Part shown: in pieces, positions 1 to 64,000 of the stretch
Layout: every line of letters begins with the position of its first letter
Numbering within the stretch: position 1 is the first letter of the stretch
NCBI GenBank assembly: GCA_044375955.1
Contig: JBILLS010000003.1
Location: forward strand, 2,471 to 66,470
Direction of reading: 5' to 3'
Length of the DNA: 64,000 nt
Source of the DNA: Candidatus Nanopelagicales bacterium
Lineage (GTDB): Bacteria > Actinomycetota > Actinomycetes > S36-B12
Program-made: the position numbers and the translations under genes
Notes under the pieces: model-generated
Told to the model about the DNA's origin: nothing
The model's database searches: none
What the model saw: only the letters and a program-made list of their open reading frames with translations

Positions 1-285
1 CACATCTTCACCCCGGAGGCCTATGCGGCGGATCTCGAGCGGCTCGAGTGGTTCAGCCAGGGTGATCACCGCCGCGTCATCGAGACGATGCCCGAATTCC
101 TCAGATACAAGCCCGAGGCACGCTTCGCCCACTATCTGATGATGATGGGTGCACTAGGTGAGGGTGACGTCGTCGCCCCAGGACAGCTCTACAGTGAGTA
201 CGAGAACTCGGTGGGCACCGGACAGGTGCACGTCTGGTTCGAGCGCCCCGCCACGGGATGGACCGGCCAGAAGGCGGCTGCATGA
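1..285 (+). CDS. 3' end of a gene that starts upstream of the window; product unknown
   Basis: Frame 1 is open from base 1 to the TGA at 283-285. The stop overlaps the next start in an ATGA (282-285), which suggests one operon with the following FAH gene. Confidence 0.45.
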   Translation, partial: HIFTPEAYAADLERLEWFSQGDHRRVIETMPEFLRYKPEARFAHYLMMMGALGEGDVVAPGQLYSEYENSVGTGQVHVWFERPATGWTGQKAAA

Positions 286-1157
286 CCGAGTACCGCAGGA
301 TCCTGCTCGACGGATACCCCTGCCAGGTGGTGCGCGAGGGTGATTCCCTCATTGCGGGCGACGGTCGCGTCGTTGCCATCGCGGACGCCATCCACCTCCC
401 ACCTGTCGAACCGACGAAGATCATCTGCGTCCACCTGAACTACGACTCCCGTACCCAGGAGTTCATGACGAAACTGCCCCCCGCACCGACGTACTTCCAC
501 AAGCCCATCACCGCTCTCAACTCCCATGGTGGTGAAGTGGTGCGGCCCCTGGGCTGTAAGTGGCTCAACTACGAGGGCGAGATCGTGATCGTCATCGGCA
601 AGACCTGCCGCAACATCTCTCCTGCCGAGGCGCCGGAGTACATCGCCGGATACACCGTCGGGAACGACTATGGATTGCACGACTTCCGGGATACCGATGC
701 GGGTTCGATGCTGCGCGTCAAGGGATCGGACACCTTGGCCCCGATCGGGCCGGGCCTGGTGACCGACTGGGACCCGCGCGGCAAGCGCATCCGCACCCTC
801 GTGAATGGAGTGGTCAAGCAGGACGACACCACCGATGGCATGGAATGGGACATGAACTACCTCGTCGCCGACATCGCGCGCACCATCACACTGGTGCCCG
901 GCGACCTGATCTTCTCCGGCACGCCGGCCAATTCCCGCACGGTCTACCCCGGTGACGTCGTCGAGGTCGAGGTCGAGGGACTCGGGACATTGCGCAATGT
1001 GATCGTCGAGGGTCCCACCCCGATCCGTGCCGATGTGGGGGCCCAACCCTCGGAGAGCGAGGAGGTCATCTCGACCGCGCAGGGTGGTGACTGGGAGTTC
1101 CGGGGGATCCGCACCCCGTCGAAGGATCTTTACCCTTCCTTGGTCGAGGAGAAGTAG
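282..1157 (+). CDS. Fumarylacetoacetate hydrolase (FAH) family protein (HpaG / 2-keto-4-pentenoate hydratase-like)
   Basis: Translation has the FAH-fold pattern (KIICVHLNYDSR, NYEGEIVIVIGK, GYTVGNDYGLHD, PGDLIFSGTPA). Start chosen at the ATGA overlap rather than the upstream ATG at 258. Confidence 0.85.
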   Translation: MTEYRRILLDGYPCQVVREGDSLIAGDGRVVAIADAIHLPPVEPTKIICVHLNYDSRTQEFMTKLPPAPTYFHKPITALNSHGGEVVRPLGCKWLNYEGEIVIVIGKTCRNISPAEAPEYIAGYTVGNDYGLHDFRDTDAGSMLRVKGSDTLAPIGPGLVTDWDPRGKRIRTLVNGVVKQDDTTDGMEWDMNYLVADIARTITLVPGDLIFSGTPANSRTVYPGDVVEVEVEGLGTLRNVIVEGPTPIRADVGAQPSESEEVISTAQGGDWEFRGIRTPSKDLYPSLVEEK

Positions 1158-1205
1158 TTCCTTAACCCGACCAGGGGCAGACTTACGGACAGACAGAGGA
1201 GAGAG

Positions 1206-1400
1206 ATGATCACGATCAGCGTCGACATGGATAAGTGCCAGCATTACGGGCAGTGCTGCTTCGAGGCCGAGGATGTCTTCCAACTCGATGACGAGGGCAA
1301 GCTCAAGTACTCGAAGGAAGTCGGCGACGACCGGCTTGCCGATGTCGAGTCGGCAGCCGACGTCTGCCCTATGCAGGCGATCAGCTTCGAAGTTTCATGA
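1206..1400 (+). CDS. Small single-cluster ferredoxin
   Basis: 64 aa with a Cys pattern (DKCQHYGQCC ... DVCPMQAI) typical of actinobacterial P450-partner ferredoxins. A purine-rich RBS (GGAGAGAG) lies upstream. ATGA overlap with the reductase gene. Confidence 0.85.
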   Translation: MITISVDMDKCQHYGQCCFEAEDVFQLDDEGKLKYSKEVGDDRLADVESAADVCPMQAISFEVS

Positions 1401-2587
1401 CTGCGGGGCAGGTTGTCGTGGTCGGTGCGGGCCTCGGCGGTCTGCGCGCGACGGAATCCCTCCGCGGGGCCGGGTACGACGGTCACATCGTGATCGTCGG
1501 CGACGAGCCGCATCGTCCCTACAACCGTCCCCCGCTGTCGAAGGAGGCACTCGCCGGCGGAGTCTCGGTCAAGGAACTCGAGTTCCGGCGCAAGTCCAGC
1601 ATCGACGATGTCGAGTGGCGTCTGGGGTCGGCCGTCGTGTCCAGCGATCTCACCGCGCAGACGGTGACACTCGCGGACGGCTCGGTGATCCCCTTCGACG
1701 GGCTCGTCGTGGCCAGCGGAATCCGACCGCGCGCCCTCCCGATCCCCGGACCCACGAAGGGTCGCTACTTCCTGCGCACCGCCCAGGACGCGGCAGGCGT
1801 GCGCGCGCATCTGGTGCCCGGTGCACGCGTGGTGATCATGGGTGCCGGATTCATCGGGTGCGAGGTTGCAGCGACGGCGGTGGGACTCGGTGCAAGAGTG
1901 CACGTAGTCGCACTCGACGAAGAGCCGATGATCAGGCCGCTCGGTCGCGAACTTGGCGCGGGCATGCGTCGGCGGCACGAGGCGAAGGGTGTCGCTTTCC
2001 ATCTTGGTCACACGATCACCGAGTTCCTGGGGGACGATCACGTTGTCGGTGCGCGGCTCGACGACGGCACAGTGCTCGATGCCGATGTCGTGATCGAGGC
2101 GGTGGGCTCGGTGGCGAACACCGAGTGGCTTGATGGCAACGGCCTGGATCTCTCGAATGGACTCATCGTGGACGACGGAATGCGCGTGATCGATGCACCG
2201 TGCCCGATGGTCGCCGTGGGGGACCTCGCCCGCCACCCCAACGCGCTGTTTCCCGGAGCTTCTCGACGCATCGAGCATTGGAACATGCCCACGGAGACCG
2301 GGAGGCGTGCAGGAGCCACCCTTGCCGCCATCCTGAGCGGACAGGAACCCGACACGGCGCCCTTCAGCGCCATGCCGTCGTTCTGGTCCGATCAGTACAA
2401 GCACAAGGTGCAATCGTTCGGCATGCCCGGAATCGCGAATCGCATCACCCTCGTCGACGGTGATGTCGACGGACCGTGCATCGTGGAGTATCTCGATGAC
2501 ACGGGACTCGTCGGAGTCGTGGGCATTGATCGGACCAGTGACCTGGCCCCCTACCGAGCACGGCTCCAACAGAGAATCGTTACCTGA
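1397..2587 (+). CDS. FAD-dependent ferredoxin-NAD(P)+ reductase (pyridine nucleotide-disulfide oxidoreductase family)
   Basis: Two dinucleotide-binding motifs (VVVGAGLGG, IMGAGFIGCE), length 396 aa, coupled to the ferredoxin gene. Confidence 0.9.
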   Translation: MTAGQVVVVGAGLGGLRATESLRGAGYDGHIVIVGDEPHRPYNRPPLSKEALAGGVSVKELEFRRKSSIDDVEWRLGSAVVSSDLTAQTVTLADGSVIPFDGLVVASGIRPRALPIPGPTKGRYFLRTAQDAAGVRAHLVPGARVVIMGAGFIGCEVAATAVGLGARVHVVALDEEPMIRPLGRELGAGMRRRHEAKGVAFHLGHTITEFLGDDHVVGARLDDGTVLDADVVIEAVGSVANTEWLDGNGLDLSNGLIVDDGMRVIDAPCPMVAVGDLARHPNALFPGASRRIEHWNMPTETGRRAGATLAAILSGQEPDTAPFSAMPSFWSDQYKHKVQSFGMPGIANRITLVDGDVDGPCIVEYLDDTGLVGVVGIDRTSDLAPYRARLQQRIVT

Positions 2588-13531: not shown

Positions 13532-14722
13532 TTGAATACGCCCGTGACCTCCTTCACCGAGACGATCACCGTCGAGGATCTCGACTCCGATCCCTATCCC
13601 ATCTATGCCCGGCTGCGCGCCGAGCAGCCGGTCGCGTGGGTGCCCGCGGTGAACTGTTGGCTGGTCACCCGCCAGAAGGACGTCGAGTTCGTCACCAAGC
13701 GATCCGAGCTGTTCACCGCCGAGGCCCCGGATGCCCCCGTGGACCGCTCCTTCGGTGGCCGCACGCTGATGACGATGGACGGCCCCGAGCACCTGGAGTT
13801 GCGACGCACCCTGGACGAGAAGTTCCGGCCGAAGAAGGTCGCCGAGTACATCGACGACCTGGTGACCCCGATCGCCGAGGAGTACGTCGCGCGTGTGCTG
13901 GCCAAGGGTGATCGTCACGCGGAGTTGGTGGTCGAGTACTTCGAGCCGATCAGCGTGCTCGCACTCGCCCGCGTCCTTGGACTCGGTCACATGTCCGCCG
14001 AGCGCCTGCAGGACTGGTTCCGCGGTCTATCCCAGGGCGCGACGAACTTCGAGAACGACCCGGAGAAGGCCGCGGCGAATGATGCAGCAGCCGCCGACAT
14101 CGACGCCGAGTTGCGTCCCTTGATGCAGCGGTGGCAGACCGAGCCCGATGACTCCGCGATCGCCGCGATGGTCACCCACGGGTGCCCGGTCGGAAGTTTT
14201 CGACAGATCGAGTACCTGTTGCCGTCGATCAAGGTGATCCTGCTCGGCGGGATGCAGGAACCCGGGCACGGCGCCGCGTCCTGCCTGGCGGCACTGCTCA
14301 TGCACCCGGACCAGATGCAGTACGTGCGGGAGCACCCGGAGAAGTGGGACGACGTGGTGAACGAGGCACTGCGCTGGATGGCACCCATCGGAACCATGCA
14401 GGCGACCGCGGTGGAGGACGTGGAGCTGGGTGGTGTGGTGATCCCGAAGGGTGACCTGGTCTCCGCGGTTGTCTCCAGCGCATGCCACGACGAGTCCGTG
14501 TTCGAGGATCCCGCGCGCTTCGACATCCATCGCCCACGACAAGGGAATGCTGCCTTCGGATTCGGCGCACACTTCTGCGCGGGTCATCAATTCGCGCGTG
14601 ACCTGGAGCGCATCAGCCTGCAGACCATCGTCGATGCGATGCCGACCATGGAACTCACTGCACCGGTTTCGTTCTTCGGCTGGGAATTCCGCGCACCCAC
14701 CGCACTACGCGTGCGCTGGTGA
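13532..14722 (+). CDS. Cytochrome P450
   Basis: Heme loop FGFGAHFCAG and I-helix-like GGMQEPGHG. Divergent from the other P450. TTG start at 13532, or GTG at 13544. Confidence 0.9.
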   Translation: MNTPVTSFTETITVEDLDSDPYPIYARLRAEQPVAWVPAVNCWLVTRQKDVEFVTKRSELFTAEAPDAPVDRSFGGRTLMTMDGPEHLELRRTLDEKFRPKKVAEYIDDLVTPIAEEYVARVLAKGDRHAELVVEYFEPISVLALARVLGLGHMSAERLQDWFRGLSQGATNFENDPEKAAANDAAAADIDAELRPLMQRWQTEPDDSAIAAMVTHGCPVGSFRQIEYLLPSIKVILLGGMQEPGHGAASCLAALLMHPDQMQYVREHPEKWDDVVNEALRWMAPIGTMQATAVEDVELGGVVIPKGDLVSAVVSSACHDESVFEDPARFDIHRPRQGNAAFGFGAHFCAGHQFARDLERISLQTIVDAMPTMELTAPVSFFGWEFRAPTALRVRW

Positions 14723-61175: not shown

Positions 61176-62381
61176 TCAGAGAGGCGACGCTTCGCCTATC
61201 GCTCTTTCGTGACCGACACCCACGGCGAGGATGTCGAGTTGCCACAGCCATCGCACGAGTTCCAGCGCGCCAGGATCCATCTGCCCGATGGATCGGATTC
61301 CGTCGACCTGCTGAAGCAAAGCAACGTCGGTGGGATCAAGCTCCATGCTCCAGCCGGGGCGCTCGACCTGCCTGCCGTTGGGCGAGCAGCGGTACCGGAA
61401 CGACGGCACGTACGTCGAAGCCTCCGGTGAAGAAAAGTCGATGCTGTAACTGGCCTTCGGCCGATCCCTGCGACATGCCATGAAGAAGTGGCATGCATTT
61501 CGCCAGTGGAATCGCTCCATGACGGACCACTGCTGCTCCCGCGGGAGACCGGCCACGAGCGCGAGAAACTTGCTCGCTGAGCGCTGCGGTGCGTAGTAGG
61601 GCGCGTTGAAGAAAGGCCCCTGGAACTCCAGTCCTGCACCCGCAGCGAGGTCGCGGCACTCGTCGATCGTGTATGTCCTTGCGCGGCCGGGAAGGAAGGT
61701 GTCGATGAGTGCCGCATCACCATCCAAGTCGGGTGCAATCTCCAGGTAGCTCATCACCGGATGTTCCACATCCAGATGCTCGAGCGCATCCACAACCAGC
61801 CGGATTGAAGGTGCATCCTCGACGAGGCCCACGTCCGCGAACACGGACTGCATCATCTCGACGCCTATGCGCCCGTATTTGGCATAGACCATGACCGCGA
61901 GTACGGCGTCAGGGCGAAGCCGCTCAGCCAGCGCCCGCATGCCCTCCGCAGGGTCAGCGAGATGGTGCAGGACTCCCGTGGTGATGATCAGGTCGAACTC
62001 GCGTCCGAGGGAGGTCACCTCCTCGATCGGCAGACGGTGGAGCTCCAGATTCGTCAAGCCGTAACGATCTGCGAGGCGCCGGTGGTTGGCCAGTGACGAC
62101 TCGCTCACGTCGATGGCCACCACGCGAGCAGCCGGATTCGTATACGCGATAACGGCCGCCTGGTTCGTGCCGCATCCGGCAATAAGGACGTCCATGTCGG
62201 GCCGGTAGTCGCCGCCCGGCCACAGGATCGGGTGCGCATGGCTCGGGTCGAACCACTGCCAGTTCGACTGCAACCACAATGGCAGGTCATCGATCGGCGT
62301 CGGATAGCTCCACTGCTCGTACTGCATCGAGACGCTGTCCTTCAGTGGGTCCGAGCCCACGGCGCCTCCTTGCTCGACCAC
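61176..62381 (-). CDS. Class I SAM-dependent methyltransferase with a C-terminal extension
   Basis: Motif I VLIAGCGTNQ and post-I VVAIDVSE. The start may be MQYEQWSYP (62327). Confidence 0.75.
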   Translation of the reverse strand: MVEQGGAVGSDPLKDSVSMQYEQWSYPTPIDDLPLWLQSNWQWFDPSHAHPILWPGGDYRPDMDVLIAGCGTNQAAVIAYTNPAARVVAIDVSESSLANHRRLADRYGLTNLELHRLPIEEVTSLGREFDLIITTGVLHHLADPAEGMRALAERLRPDAVLAVMVYAKYGRIGVEMMQSVFADVGLVEDAPSIRLVVDALEHLDVEHPVMSYLEIAPDLDGDAALIDTFLPGRARTYTIDECRDLAAGAGLEFQGPFFNAPYYAPQRSASKFLALVAGLPREQQWSVMERFHWRNACHFFMACRRDRPKASYSIDFSSPEASTYVPSFRYRCSPNGRQVERPGWSMELDPTDVALLQQVDGIRSIGQMDPGALELVRWLWQLDILAVGVGHERAIGEASPL

Positions 62382-62528
62382 GCTGTTGTCGCGATCCTAG
62401 GAGGGGTGTCTCGACGAATCGGCCGGTGCGCACGAGGTAGTGCTTTGGCAAACGGCCCGGTCCTTGCCCATTTCGAGAACCCCGGCTTACCATCAGCGCC
62501 ACGCCATGTTGGCGGCGAAGGGACCCCG

Positions 62529-64000
62529 ATGTTTTCGACACGCAAGCGCAACCTCGCCGCCGCACTCAGCGCATCCACCCTTGTCGGTGCGGCGCTCGCA
62601 GTGGGCACAGTCACCCCGGCAGTCGCCGTGGCCAATTCCTCAGGAGATGCCCGAGCCAAGGCGTCATGTGTCGACCAGGCGCTGCAGATGGCGCAACCCC
62701 TCATCAAGTCGATCGCGCAGGCGGGAACGGCGAAAGAACGCGGGGTGCCGCAGATCATCGCGGCCATCCGGGCCAAGTCCGCCGCGTGCCAGGACGTGCT
62801 CTTCGGCGACGGCACTGCCGCGAACCCCGATGCCGGGCTTCTCGTCGGCAACGGCTTCTCGTTCACCGCGGCCACTTGCGAACCTGGCAACAGTTGCGAC
62901 GGAGGGGATGGCGGACTACTCCTCGGCAACGGCGGCAATGGTTTCAACGGTGGCGATGGTGGCAACGCCGGCTGGTACGGGGGAAGGGCCGGGAACGGCG
63001 GCCACGGGGTAATCGGCGGCTCCTACGGAGGCGGCATCCAACTCACGGGGAATGGACAACTGATTTCCCAGGGGACCCCGGTCGTCGGCTCGCAGATGAT
63101 CCACGGGGTGGATGGCGGCCATGGTGGCGCCGCGGGTCGCTACGGCAATGGGGGCAACGGCGGAAACGGTGGTGACGCAAGTGTCGGCGGAATAGGAGGG
63201 GACGGCGGCAACGGCGGTCGGGGCGGACTGCTCTCGGGCAACGGCGGGGCCGGCGGCAACGGCGGTGCCGGCGGGGTCGGCACTCCCCAGGTGCAGGGCG
63301 GGGTCGGCGGCAACGGCGGGGCCGGCGGGAGTAGCGGACTCCTCGCGGGCAGCGGTGGAGCCGGCGGTCGGGGCGGTGACGGCGGGGTCGGTAACTCCCA
63401 GGTGCAGGGAGGTAACGGCGGCAACGGCGGCAACGCCGGACTTCTCTTGGCGAGCAGCGGCAACGGCGGTAGCGCCGGATGGTTCGGGTCAACCGGTGGG
63501 GCCGGCGGCAACGGCGGGGCCGGTTCGACGGGCGGTAACGGAGGAAACGGCGGCAACGGGTCGACAGGCGGTAACGGGGGCAACGCCGGAGCCGGGAACT
63601 CCGCTGGAGCCGGGGTTCTCCTCGGCAATGGTGGCAGCGGCGGGGCCGGATCAACCGGCGGAAACGGCGGTAACGGCGGGGCCGGTGCCACCGGCGGTAA
63701 CGGCGGCGTTGGGTCTACCAGCAGTAACGGCGGCAATGGCGGGGCCGGATCAACCGGCGGCAACGGCGGCAATGGCGGGGCCGGTGGCCTCGCGTCGATC
63801 GGGGGTAACGGCGGGGCCGGATCAGCCGGCGGTAACGGCGGCAATGGCGGGGCCGGTGGCCTCGGTTCTACCGGCGGCAGTGGTGGGAATGCCGGGCTTT
63901 TCCTTGGAGGTGGCGGGAGCGCCGCCCCATCCGCGTCGATCGGCGGTAACGGTGGCCTCGGGTCGGTCGGCGGCAACGGCGGTGCCGCGAGCGGCGTCTC
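62529..64000 (+). CDS. Secreted Gly/Asn-rich PGRS-like repeat protein (5' partial; continues beyond the window)
   Basis: Hand translation of frame 3 from the ATG at 62529 finds no stop through 64000, so it is absent from the ORF track. Signal peptide MFSTRKRNLAAALSASTLVGAALAVGTVTPAVAVA, then about 90 helical residues, then GGxGGxGG repeats. Confidence 0.75.
   Translation, partial: MFSTRKRNLAAALSASTLVGAALAVGTVTPAVAVANSSGDARAKASCVDQALQMAQPLIKSIAQAGTAKERGVPQIIAAIRAKSAACQDVLFGDGTAANPDAGLLVGNGFSFTAATCEPGNSCDGGDGGLLLGNGGNGFNGGDGGNAGWYGGRAGNGGHGVIGGSYGGGIQLTGNGQLISQGTPVVGSQMIHGVDGGHGGAAGRYGNGGNGGNGGDASVGGIGGDGGNGGRGGLLSGNGGAGGNGGAGGVGTPQVQGGVGGNGGAGGSSGLLAGSGGAGGRGGDGGVGNSQVQGGNGGNGGNAGLLLASSGNGGSAGWFGSTGGAGGNGGAGSTGGNGGNGGNGSTGGNGGNAGAGNSAGAGVLLGNGGSGGAGSTGGNGGNGGAGATGGNGGVGSTSSNGGNGGAGSTGGNGGNGGAGGLASIGGNGGAGSAGGNGGNGGAGGLGSTGGSGGNAGLFLGGGGSAAPSASIGGNGGLGSVGGNGGAASGV
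62830..64000 (+). repeat. Degenerate GGC/GGN-rich coding repeats (GGNGGAGG-type)
   Basis: Recurrent ggcggcaacggcggggccgg-type units. The Pro-rich and Arg-rich ORFs on the opposite strand are mirror images of these. Confidence 0.85.

What the first reader, a model, noticed from the sequence alone, without database searches (positions are those of the whole stretch)
62529..64000. PGRS-like Gly/Asn-rich repeat protein with a Sec signal peptide, invisible in the ORF track
Hand translation of frame 3 from the ATG at 62529 is open to the window end, at least 490 codons. It reads as a signal peptide, then a helical domain of about 90 aa with two Cys, then repeats such as GLLLGNGGNGFNGGDGGNAGWYGG, GGLLSGNGGAGGNGGAGG and GNAGLLLASSGNGGSAGWFGSTGGAGGNGGAGSTGGNGGNGG. 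Established knowledge: this GGxGGxGG pattern with periodic G(L/W)(L/F) is the hallmark of mycobacterial PE_PGRS PGRS domains. Those are attached to a PE domain and exported by ESX-5. Here the same repeat type is attached to a classical signal peptide in a genome that does not look mycobacterial. The ORF track instead lists Pro-rich (63140-63976, minus) and Arg-rich (63043-63654, minus) mirror ORFs that an automated caller could pick by mistake. A SAM methyltransferase is encoded divergently.
Basis: partly seen in the sequence, partly recalled or inferred. Interest (0 to 1): 0.65.

Follow-up and report, generated by a model that had tools for sequence, protein, structure and literature searches.

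The report
Secreted PGRS-like glycine-repeat protein, non-mycobacterial
An uncultured freshwater actinobacterium with no PE proteins and no type VII secretion core gene encodes a real, exported 493-residue glycine/asparagine-repeat protein related to the "PGRS" domains of tuberculosis bacteria, and its gene is usually paired with a close relative of the M. tuberculosis methyltransferase Rv2067c.

Summary
Frame 3 from ATG 62529 is open to the window end and stops 3 codons later in the contig, giving a complete 493-aa protein with no C-terminal anchor. The ORF track missed it only because it runs off the window.

Codon usage, an SD-like site, identical gene calls in two lake metagenomes and homologs in 32 of 173 genomes of the same family support this frame over the Pro- and Arg-rich antisense ORFs.

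The protein has four parts:
- a Sec-type signal peptide;
- a Cys-bracketed alpha-hairpin;
- a conserved "onset" motif with a glycine-triplet core, confidently modelled by AlphaFold2 and matching only polyproline-II bundle antifreeze proteins in the PDB;
- a low-confidence (GGN)n tail.

Complete relatives range from 321 to about 2,185 aa. The onset and core are homologous to Pfam-PGRS-positive secreted proteins of Mycobacteriales that carry TNT, PE-PGRS_C protease or hydrolase cargo. The target itself scores below the Pfam cut-off. Its genome has no PE domain and no EccB.

So this is a PGRS-like, Sec-exported, cargo-less envelope protein, a new variant of a known kind. Its function is unknown. 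The best lead is the conserved divergent pairing with an Rv2067c-type protein methyltransferase (about 58% identical).

The parts
62529..64000 (+). CDS of the 493-aa PGRS-like secreted protein. The last 7 coding bases and the stop lie just past the window, at contig C24:66471-66480.
   Evidence: ORF and its end. (codon usage). (identical gene calls in 2 metagenomes).
62517..62523 (+). Shine-Dalgarno-like GAAGGGA, 5 nt upstream of the ATG.
   Evidence: Read from the sequence.
62529..62633 (+). Signal peptide, about residues 1-35. It has a basic n-region (TRKRN), an Ala/Gly/Leu h-region and AVAVA before the predicted signal peptidase I site. There is no lipobox, and the twin-Arg is not conserved in the family.
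   Evidence: Alignment A2. Low pLDDT over residues 1-36. The cleavage site is inferred.
62640..62804 (+). Alpha-helical hairpin (H38-63, H73-92) bracketed by invariant Cys47 and Cys87. This is the lineage-specific N-terminal cap.
   Evidence: AF2 DSSP with pLDDT 75-93. Invariant columns. The disulfide is inferred.
62805..63461 (+). Conserved onset motif (LFGDGTAANPDAGLLVGNGFSFTAATCEPGNSCDGG..., Cys117 and Cys123 invariant) followed by the conserved Gly-triplet core (residues 93-311). It is predicted as a polyglycine-II sandwich with GLL/GWY/GWF turns.
   Evidence: pLDDT 85-96. Foldseek hits only PPII-bundle antifreeze proteins. Homology to PF21526-positive proteins.
63006..63113 (+). Lineage-specific insert (residues about 160-195). 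It replaces the third Cys pair (C....C) that most family members carry. Most of the low-confidence dip falls here.
   Evidence: Alignments. pLDDT dip at residues 165-185.
63462..64000 (+). Variable (GGN/GGA/GST)n tail (residues 312-493). It includes a diverged 36-bp (12-aa) unit in about 6.8 copies. The fold is not confidently predicted.
   Evidence: TRF. pLDDT below 50 in both models. Length variation of 321-2185 aa among relatives.
63140..63976 (-). Pro-rich antisense ORF. It is a mirror image of the Gly codons and is not a gene.
   Evidence: Codon score -0.35. It shares wobble positions with the + frame.
63043..63654 (-). Arg-rich antisense ORF. It is a mirror artefact and is not a gene.
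   Evidence: dN/dS above 2 in that frame class.
61176..62381 (-). Divergent neighbour gene: a 401-aa class I SAM methyltransferase, a full-length homolog of M. tuberculosis Rv2067c (PDB 8hkr). It is conserved next to the PGRS-like gene in 23-24 related genomes.
   Evidence: E 1.6e-132. (synteny and co-occurrence).

Best explanation
This is a genuine gene for a Sec-exported extracellular or envelope protein with no enzymatic cargo.

After signal-peptide removal (about residue 35) the mature protein has three parts:
1. A short alpha-hairpin, probably stapled by Cys47-Cys87.
2. A conserved 'onset' motif with a small Cys117-Cys123 loop. This nucleates a flat stack of polyglycine-II helices (residues about 93-310). 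Gly side-chain-free faces pack inward, and the turns on one edge carry Leu, Trp, Phe and Tyr. This is the architecture predicted for mycobacterial PGRS domains.
3. A nearly uncharged (GGN)n tail. Its length changes by repeat gain and loss between lineages.

The core is homologous to the PGRS modules that Mycobacteriales place between a signal peptide and a toxin or enzyme domain. Here the module stands alone. Because the genome has no PE and no EccB, export must be through Sec (inferred).

The most likely role (inferred, not shown) is a surface-coating or envelope-associated structural protein. The hydrophobic edge would contact the envelope or other copies of the protein. The rapid divergence and length variation, at the edge of a flexible genomic island, would reflect selection on the cell surface, for example by phages or grazers.
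For: The gene is real.
- The ORF is complete at 493 aa.
- The codon score equals the genome mean.
- dN/dS is 0.16.
- The identical protein was called on 2 metagenome contigs.
- A homologous N-module is found in 32 of 173 genomes of the same family and 8 of 16 genera.

Export.
- The family signal peptide is conserved, without a lipobox and without a conserved RR.
- PE and EccB are absent. The EccB positive control rang in Corynebacterium.

Fold.
- AF2 gives pLDDT 85-96 for residues 40-310 with a 28-sequence alignment. DSSP shows no regular secondary structure after the hairpin.
- The only significant PDB neighbours are PPII-bundle antifreeze proteins: 7jjv at E 8.8e-5 and probability 1.0, then 3bog and 2pne.

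Homology to PGRS.
- The target has a sub-threshold PF21526 hit, and 4 of 16 family-alignment members match it.
- The onset and core hit proteins with above-threshold PF21526 plus TNT, PE-PGRS_C, GH12, M23 or esterase domains, at E 1e-13 to 1e-9 in a 5.8-billion-protein search.
- The PGII-sandwich features of PGRS come from PMC9436101.

Variability.
- Complete family members run from 321 to about 2185 aa. One genome has 4 paralogs, 3 of them on one contig.
- The same-genus genome G005 keeps the flanking MMPL gene at 91% identity, but the PGRS-like protein at only about 58-62%.
Against: - The target scores below the Pfam PGRS gathering cut-off: 15.7 bits against 27.
- Residues 312-493, 37% of the protein, are below pLDDT 50 in both models and may be disordered.
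- The fold rests on prediction only. Foldseek TM-scores to the small antifreeze bundles are moderate (0.37-0.57 on the target length).
- There is no expression or localisation evidence.
- No anchoring motif was found, so 'envelope-associated' rather than 'released' is open.
- The 'surface coat' function is inference from architecture and evolutionary pattern, not from any assay.
- The organism presumably lacks a mycomembrane (not tested). The membrane-'sailing' model proposed for PE_PGRS therefore cannot simply be transferred.
Confidence: 0.62

Rival explanations
1. The protein is the native partner or substrate of the divergently encoded Rv2067c-type methyltransferase. The two genes would form a co-evolving cassette in which the exported Gly/Asn-rich protein is methylated before or during export, or is co-regulated from the shared 147-bp intergenic region. 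This adds to the structural reading and does not exclude it.
For: - The MTase is about 58% identical over its full length to Rv2067c/8hkr, at E 1.6e-132.
- 30 of 32 genomes with the PGRS-like N-module also have the MTase, against 11 of 141 without it. Fisher p is 3.7e-22, uncorrected for phylogeny.
- 23-24 pairs are directly adjacent and mostly divergent, with gaps of 52-866 bp.
- In G048 the MTase sits next to a different signal-peptide Gly-rich protein.
- Between same-genus genomes both genes are about 58% identical while the flanking MMPL is 91% identical.
Against: - No Lys is invariant in the conserved module.
- The MTase has no signal peptide, while the partner is exported.
- 11 genomes keep the MTase without the partner, and 6-7 have the two genes unlinked.
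- The closest ortholog's contig lacks the MTase between the same neighbours.
- Conserved synteny within one family can be inheritance alone.
Confidence: 0.12
2. The protein is mostly an intrinsically disordered, glycine-rich secreted polymer, acting as matrix, lubricant or hydrogel. Only a small folded head would exist, and the PGII sandwich would be an AlphaFold over-interpretation.
For: - Residues 312-493 are below pLDDT 50 in both models.
- The tail has few hydrophobic residues and is low-complexity.
- Tail length is unconstrained among relatives.
Against: - Residues 93-310 are modelled at pLDDT 85-96 with many invariant Gly positions out to residue 240.
- dN/dS in the repeat part is 0.18, which indicates constraint.
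- The structural matches are specific to PPII bundles.
Confidence: 0.15
3. It is a cargo-less remnant of a polymorphic secreted toxin or enzyme carrier. The onset+PGRS module normally presents a C-terminal TNT, protease or hydrolase domain, and this lineage lost the cargo.
For: Homologs of the onset and core in Mycobacteriales and in a Ca. Nanopelagicales MAG carry TNT, PE-PGRS_C, GH12, M23, esterase, beta-lactamase-fold or beta-propeller domains.
Against: - All 20 or more complete members of the hairpin-bearing family end in Gly-rich sequence without cargo.
- They are under purifying selection and spread over 8 genera. This is a stable architecture, not a recent decay product.
Confidence: 0.07
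4. It is an ice-binding or antifreeze protein, by analogy with the springtail PPII-bundle antifreeze proteins that are its only structural neighbours.
For: Foldseek hits to 7jjv, 3bog and 2pne. Several relatives come from seasonally frozen lakes, judged from record titles.
Against: - A same-genus member comes from a MAG named K_Offshore_80m. I read that, from memory and unverified, as a deep tropical-lake sample.
- There is no sequence homology to the antifreeze proteins.
- The hydrophobic Leu/Trp/Phe edge is unlike the flat Ala/Gly ice-binding faces (my knowledge).
Confidence: 0.03
5. There is no gene on the + strand, and one of the antisense Pro- or Arg-rich ORFs is the real product.
For: Both antisense ORFs are long. 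The Pro frame shares wobble positions, so its dN/dS is also low at 0.24.
Against: - The codon score of the Pro frame is -0.35, against +0.27 for the + frame.
- The antisense ORFs cover only the repeats. The + ORF joins a conserved signal peptide, hairpin and motif to them in 32 genomes.
- The Arg frame has dN/dS above 2.
Confidence: 0.01

Closest known systems
PGRS domains of mycobacterial PE_PGRS proteins (Pfam PF21526; predicted polyglycine-II 'sail' sandwiches, PMC9436101)
   Same: - GGx triplet arrays interrupted by G(L/W)(L/F/Y) turns.
- AlphaFold predicts a flat non-alpha, non-beta stack.
- Highly polymorphic length.
- A weak direct PF21526 hit, plus clear homology to PF21526-positive proteins through the onset and core.
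   Different: - No PE domain, no YxxxD/E-type T7SS context, and no EccB in the genome. A Sec-type signal peptide takes that place.
- A disulfide-bracketed alpha-hairpin and an LFGDGT...GNGFS(F/Y)..TC.....C onset motif stand where the PE linker and GRPLI motif would be.
- Asn-rich rather than Ala-rich.
- The host is a small-genome planktonic freshwater actinobacterium, presumably without a mycomembrane.
- The target is below the Pfam cut-off.
Signal-peptide 'onset + PGRS + cargo' proteins of environmental Mycobacteriales and Nanopelagicales (database names: TNT domain-containing protein, hypothetical protein; e.g. P0121, P0052, P0132)
   Same: The same onset motif and first PGII repeats, 55-70% identical over about 40-70 residues at E to 1e-13. 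All have an N-terminal export signal and no PE domain.
   Different: - Those proteins end in TNT, PE-PGRS_C aspartyl-protease, GH12, M23, esterase or beta-propeller domains. They lack the Cys-bracketed hairpin.
- The target family has no cargo and has long Gly-rich tails.
Springtail / snow-flea antifreeze proteins (PDB 7jjv, 3bog, 2pne)
   Same: They are the only solved structures that resemble the model: bundles of Gly-rich polyproline-II-type helices packed through glycine.
   Different: There is no detectable sequence homology. They are 81-126 residues against more than 200, they are eukaryotic, their function is ice binding, and they lack a hydrophobic edge.
M. tuberculosis Rv2067c (PDB 8hkr), for the neighbouring gene only
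   Same: The divergent neighbour is about 58% identical over residues 10-368 and covers the catalytic, dimerisation and C-terminal domains.
   Different: Rv2067c is described as a secreted effector that trimethylates host histone H3K79 (PMC10739865). The homolog here is in a free-living lake bacterium and is genetically tied to a PGRS-like secreted protein. Its substrate is unknown.

Membership tests
PE_PGRS (mycobacterial) | N-terminal PE domain (PF00934) | tested here: not met
   There is no PE hit in the protein or anywhere in the 99.5%-complete genome, six frames. The N-terminus is a signal peptide plus a hairpin.
PE_PGRS (mycobacterial) | Export by a type VII (ESX-5) system | tested here: not met
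   No EccB (PF05108) is found in the genome. The control rang in Corynebacterium glutamicum. Other ESX components were not searched.
PE_PGRS (mycobacterial) | GRPLI motif at the PE-linker/PGRS junction | tested here: inconclusive
   No GRPLI is present. The junction carries PDAGLLVGNG, which resembles GRPLIGNG in position and in its last residues. This resemblance is from reading the sequence, not from an alignment with PE_PGRS.
PGRS repeat domain (Pfam PF21526) | Score at or above the gathering cut-off of 27 bits | tested here: not met
   The target scores 15.7 bits, E 0.021. In the family alignment 4 of 16 members hit at E<0.01, the best at 26.4 bits. Homologs sharing the onset and core score 31.8-36.7 bits.
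PGRS repeat domain (Pfam PF21526) | Sequence homology to proteins that are members | tested here: met
   Residues 85-235 match PF21526-positive proteins at E 1.6e-13 (P0119), 3.3e-13 (P0121) and others. In P0121 the Pfam hit covers the stretch equivalent to target residues about 117-170.
Polyglycine-II / PPII sandwich fold | Gly-X-X or G-G-X triplet helices packed without regular alpha or beta structure | tested here: met
   This rests on prediction only. AF2 gives pLDDT 85-96 over residues 93-310 with no DSSP helix or strand. Foldseek finds only PPII bundles. Sixteen (GGx)n runs were counted. The tail, residues 312-493, is not confidently folded.
Polyglycine-II / PPII sandwich fold | One edge lined by hydrophobic or aromatic turn residues (PGRS 'straight edge', PMC9436101) | tested here: inconclusive
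   GLL, GWY, GWF and GLF recur at residues 103, 129, 148, 233, 270, 304, 317, 362 and 456.
Glycine-rich phage tail fibre / minor tail protein | Homology to phage protein families, or a prophage context | tested here: not met
   - No PHROGs hit.
- No tblastn match in 50,697 phage records.
- The best BFVD fold match is E 0.025.
- The neighbours are an MTase, a fasciclin lipoprotein and an MMPL transporter.
Covalently anchored surface proteins (sortase substrates, lipoproteins) | C-terminal LPXTG-type sorting signal, or an N-terminal lipobox | tested here: not met
   The protein ends ...GGNGGAASGVSAG with no motif or hydrophobic tail. There is no Cys near the signal-peptide cleavage region, the first being Cys47. 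Family C-termini are not conserved.
Tat substrates | Conserved twin-arginine (S/T-R-R-x-F-L-K) in the n-region | tested here: not met
   The n-regions read RKR, RRQ, RQR, RKH, HRS and RRR across the family, so RR is not conserved. TatC exists in the genome, so Tat is not excluded for individual members.
Rv2067c-type protein lysine methyltransferase (neighbour gene) | Full-length similarity covering the catalytic, dimerisation and C-terminal domains | tested here: met
   phmmer against the PDB gives 8hkr_A at E 1.6e-132, query 10-368 against chain 7-367. Activity and substrate were not tested.

The most novel reading that the evidence does not exclude
The Rv2067c-type methyltransferase and the PGRS-like secreted protein are a functional, co-evolving pair. 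The enzyme family that M. tuberculosis is reported to use on host histone H3 would have arisen as a modifier (or export or assembly partner) of bacterial polyglycine-II envelope proteins. Free-living lake actinobacteria would still show that original pairing.
Probability: 0.12. Interest if true: 0.75.

Novelty: new variant of a known kind. Interest (0 to 1): 0.45.

Why it matters
The papers I could search treat PGRS domains as a peculiarity of PE_PGRS proteins of mycobacteria, exported by ESX-5 and tied to the mycomembrane. Three points follow from this locus.

1. Wider host range and export route. The same kind of glycine-triplet module, with a recognisable conserved onset motif, exists in small-genome planktonic freshwater actinobacteria. 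These have no PE genes and no EccB (the one ESX core gene searched for), and the module sits behind an ordinary signal peptide with no cargo. This argues that the PGRS module is older and more widely used than PE/ESX, and that PE was grafted onto it later.

2. Material for structural work. The family offers non-pathogen, disulfide-stapled and comparatively short members (321-493 aa). These could finally allow an experimental structure of a PGRS-type fold.

3. A clue to the methyltransferase. The tight genetic pairing with an Rv2067c homolog gives a testable idea about what that methyltransferase family does in bacteria that never meet a host.

Against this, Pfam already flags PGRS in non-PE proteins, and earlier notes of this scan report similar signal-peptide PGRS proteins in other Actinomycetota. 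The surprise is therefore moderate.

Tried and rejected
- Word-index homolog search with residues 1-130 found nothing. Exhaustive phmmer against 1.8 billion representatives was needed.
- NCBIfam has no family for the target or its close relatives. A PDB sequence search gave only noise from a designed PPR protein and collagens.
- A phage origin is rejected. There is no PHROGs hit, no tblastn match in phage records, and no BFVD fold match.
- There are no paralogs of the N-module in the own genome. The Gly-rich hit on contig C75 is an unrelated secreted Gly-rich protein without a Pfam family.
- P0205, which UniRef names 'PE-PGRS family protein', turned out to have no Pfam domain and no BLASTP similarity to the target. 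It was dropped as a bridge to PE_PGRS.
- dN/dS cannot separate the Gly frame from the wobble-sharing antisense Pro frame (0.18 against 0.24). Codon usage and the contiguous conserved N-terminus decide instead.
- The intergenic region shows no Rfam element, no sigma-70-like promoter and no convincing terminator.
- I suspected a PqqD-like peptide-binding C-terminus in the MTase from memory. No Pfam hit supports it, and that region aligns to the Rv2067c C-terminal domain instead.
Full report
**1. Observation**

Frame 3 from the ATG at 62529 is open for 490 codons to the window end. The window is G000:C24:2471-66470, in a 2.08-Mb, 75-contig assembly that is 99.5% complete. In the contig the frame stops 3 codons further on (...GVSAG*). 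The full product is therefore 493 aa and there is no C-terminal anchor, sortase signal or autotransporter domain.

The ORF lister shows the frame once open-ended ORFs are allowed. It was invisible only because it runs off the window. The Pro-rich and Arg-rich antisense ORFs are present as described.

Downstream lie a fasciclin-domain lipoprotein gene (minus strand) and an MMPL transporter gene. Upstream and divergent lies a SAM methyltransferase gene.

**2. Is it the coding frame?**

- I trained a codon log-odds table on 769 long ORFs of the same genome. The + frame scores 0.29 (N-terminal part) and 0.27 (repeat part) per codon, which equals the genome mean of 0.29 ± 0.16. The Pro-rich antisense frame scores -0.35.
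- Against an 82%-identical ortholog, dN/dS is 0.16 overall and 0.18 in the repeats. The antisense Pro frame shares wobble positions and gets 0.24, so this test alone is a weak discriminator. The other four frames give ratios above 2.
- A GAAGGGA Shine-Dalgarno-like site lies 5 nt before the ATG.
- The identical 493-aa protein was called as a gene on two JGI metagenome contigs.
- The same start, signal peptide and domain order recur in relatives.

The gene is real.

**3. Anatomy**

| Residues | Feature | Evidence |
|---|---|---|
| 1 to about 35 | Signal peptide: basic n-region, Ala/Gly/Leu h-region, AVAVA before the likely signal peptidase I site. No lipobox. The twin-Arg is not conserved across the family, so Sec is more likely than Tat, although TatC exists. 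| |
| 38-92 | Two helices, with Cys47 and Cys87 invariant | |
| from 91 | Invariant-rich onset motif LFGDGTAANPDAGLLVGNGFSFTAATCEPGNSCDGGDGGLLLGNGGNGFNGGDGGNAGWYGG. Cys117 and Cys123 are invariant, and Gly positions stay invariant out to residue 240. | |
| about 160-195 | An insert. Most relatives carry a third Cys pair here. | |
| 312-493 | Low-complexity GGN/GGA/GST repeats, including a diverged 36-bp unit in 6.8 copies | |

The repeat region is 48% Gly and 10.5% Asn, and is almost uncharged.

**4. Fold**

AlphaFold2 with a 16-sequence alignment, and again with a 28-sequence alignment, gave the same picture. The hairpin and residues 93-310 are confident (pLDDT 85-96 in the second run). DSSP assigns no helix or strand after the hairpin. 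Residues 312-493 stay below pLDDT 50.

Foldseek against the PDB returned only polyproline-II helical-bundle antifreeze proteins as significant matches. These were 7jjv (E 8.8e-5, probability 1.0), 3bog and 2pne. This is the architecture proposed and AlphaFold-predicted for PGRS domains: glycine pointing inward, one straight edge of hydrophobic or aromatic turns, and variable numbers of PGII helices (PMC9436101).

I could not inspect coordinates. The disulfides and the hydrophobic edge are therefore inferred from invariance and from the periodic GLL/GWY/GWF turns.

**5. Relatives**

*The hairpin-bearing family.*
- The N-terminal 130 residues found nothing in the word-indexed search. Exhaustive phmmer gave 114 hits, 17 of them below 1e-10.
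- In whole genomes, the complete N-module (signal peptide, hairpin and onset) occurs in 32 of 173 species genomes of the same GTDB family. That covers 8 of 16 genera, at 1-4 copies each. It occurs in none of 16 sampled genomes from other families of the order.
- NCBI titles of these records are freshwater MAGs, several labelled Candidatus Nanopelagicales.
- Complete members are 321, 381-438, 493, 703-838, 1105, 1778, 1858 and about 2185 aa long. One genome has four paralogs, three on one contig.
- None has a C-terminal domain.

*The wider onset+PGRS module.*
- The onset and core (residues about 90-235) is far more widespread. It matches many secreted proteins of Mycobacterium, Mycolicibacterium and Williamsia, and of MAGs.
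- Those proteins carry above-threshold Pfam PGRS hits. They also carry C-terminal TNT, PE-PGRS_C aspartyl-protease, GH12, M23, esterase, beta-lactamase-fold, pentapeptide or beta-propeller domains.
- In one of them (P0121) the Pfam PGRS match covers the stretch equivalent to target residues about 117-170.

*The target itself.* It scores only 15.7 bits on PF21526, against a cut-off of 27.

**6. What it is not**

- No PE domain and no EccB are found in the genome. The EccB control was positive in Corynebacterium. It is therefore not a PE_PGRS protein, and ESX export is very unlikely.
- There is no phage relationship by PHROGs, tblastn or BFVD.
- There is no LPXTG motif and no lipobox.

**7. The neighbour**

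The divergent 401-aa methyltransferase is a full-length homolog of M. tuberculosis Rv2067c (PDB 8hkr): about 58% identical, E 1.6e-132, query residues 10-368. Rv2067c is described as a secreted protein lysine methyltransferase that trimethylates host H3K79. The same paper notes that M. smegmatis lacks a homolog (PMC10739865).

Within the 173 family genomes the counts are as follows:

| | MTase present | MTase absent |
|---|---|---|
| PGRS-like N-module present | 30 | 2 |
| PGRS-like N-module absent | 11 | 130 |

- Fisher p is 3.7e-22, not corrected for phylogeny.
- In 23-24 genomes the two genes are directly adjacent, mostly divergent, with gaps of 52-866 bp.
- In one MTase-only genome the MTase sits next to a different signal-peptide Gly-rich protein.
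- Between the target and a same-genus genome, the flanking MMPL gene is 91% identical. The MTase and the PGRS-like protein are both only about 58% identical, and the gene content beyond them differs. The pair therefore sits at the edge of a flexible region and diverges together.
- Counter-evidence: there is no invariant Lys in the conserved module, the MTase has no signal peptide, and the pair is unlinked or incomplete in a minority of genomes. The closest ortholog's contig is one such case.

**8. Interpretation**

*Shown:*
- The gene is real and conserved.
- It has an export signal.
- The genome has no PE domain and no EccB.
- The core is homologous to PGRS-positive modules.
- The core is confidently predicted as a PPII/PGII-type fold.
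- Length variation is extreme.
- The pairing with an Rv2067c-type MTase is conserved.

*Inferred:*
- Export is by Sec.
- The two Cys pairs form disulfides.
- The protein acts as an envelope or surface coat.
- Selection on the cell surface drives the variability.

*Unknown:*
- The fold of the tail.
- Attachment to the cell.
- The ligand.
- Whether the MTase acts on the protein.

**9. Novelty**

Papers found by full-text search treat PGRS only within mycobacterial PE_PGRS. On the other hand, Pfam already marks PGRS in non-PE proteins. Earlier notes of this scan also describe comparable signal-peptide PGRS proteins in other Actinomycetota. Those notes are unchecked leads, not evidence.

I class this as a new variant of a known kind: a cargo-less, hairpin-capped, Sec-type PGRS-like family in freshwater Nanopelagicales-like actinobacteria. 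The methyltransferase pairing is the most interesting open lead.

Noticed in passing
window 61176-62381 (-): The divergent methyltransferase is a full-length homolog (about 58% identical, E 1.6e-132) of M. tuberculosis Rv2067c/8hkr, the reported host-histone H3K79 methyltransferase. It sits in a free-living lake bacterium. It occurs in 41 of 173 genomes of the family and is adjacent to the PGRS-like gene in 23-24 of them.
   Followed up: partly
L014 (G012:C95:15000-34000), ORFs ending at 14599, 16850 and 7233 (-); L015: One related genome (Loclat_bin-11151) has four paralogs of the family, of 703, 735, 838 and 1858 aa. Three of them lie on one contig. This is a local expansion with huge length differences.
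   Followed up: partly
L122 (G048:C25) 3-608 (-), next to the MTase at 851-2014 (+): In a genome that lacks the hairpin N-module, the Rv2067c-like MTase is divergently paired with a different signal-peptide GGAGGxGG protein.
   Followed up: no
L021 / L102 (G122:C98, a 2.8-kb contig): The closest ortholog (82-84% identical) lies on a short contig binned into a different genus. There the MTase is missing between the 649-aa lipoprotein gene and the PGRS-like gene. This could be mis-binning, horizontal transfer or an MTase deletion.
   Followed up: no
L107:250-1563 (+) and L113:1054-2340 (-): Two family members end in a Pro-rich C-terminal motif, IPPLPPLPPFPS(T/G). The target and the other members lack it.
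   Followed up: no
G000:C75:23837-24988 (-) = L003:3838-4923 (-): The own genome holds a second, unrelated secreted Gly-rich protein (27% Gly, with a signal peptide and several Cys). It has no Pfam family.
   Followed up: partly
P0121, P0020, P0037, L043 and others: Many environmental Mycobacteriales proteins, and one protein NCBI labels Ca. Nanopelagicales, join signal peptide, onset motif and PGRS to a C-terminal TNT (NAD+-glycohydrolase toxin) domain. Others carry PE-PGRS_C protease, GH12, M23 or esterase domains instead. The module looks like a general presenter of secreted cargo.
   Followed up: partly
window about 64900-end, and G000:C24 end / C25 start, against L016: Synteny with the same-genus genome G005 is 91-95% identical on the MMPL side and continues onto contig C25. 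It breaks exactly at the fasciclin / PGRS-like / MTase segment. The finding therefore lies at the border of a flexible genomic region.
   Followed up: partly
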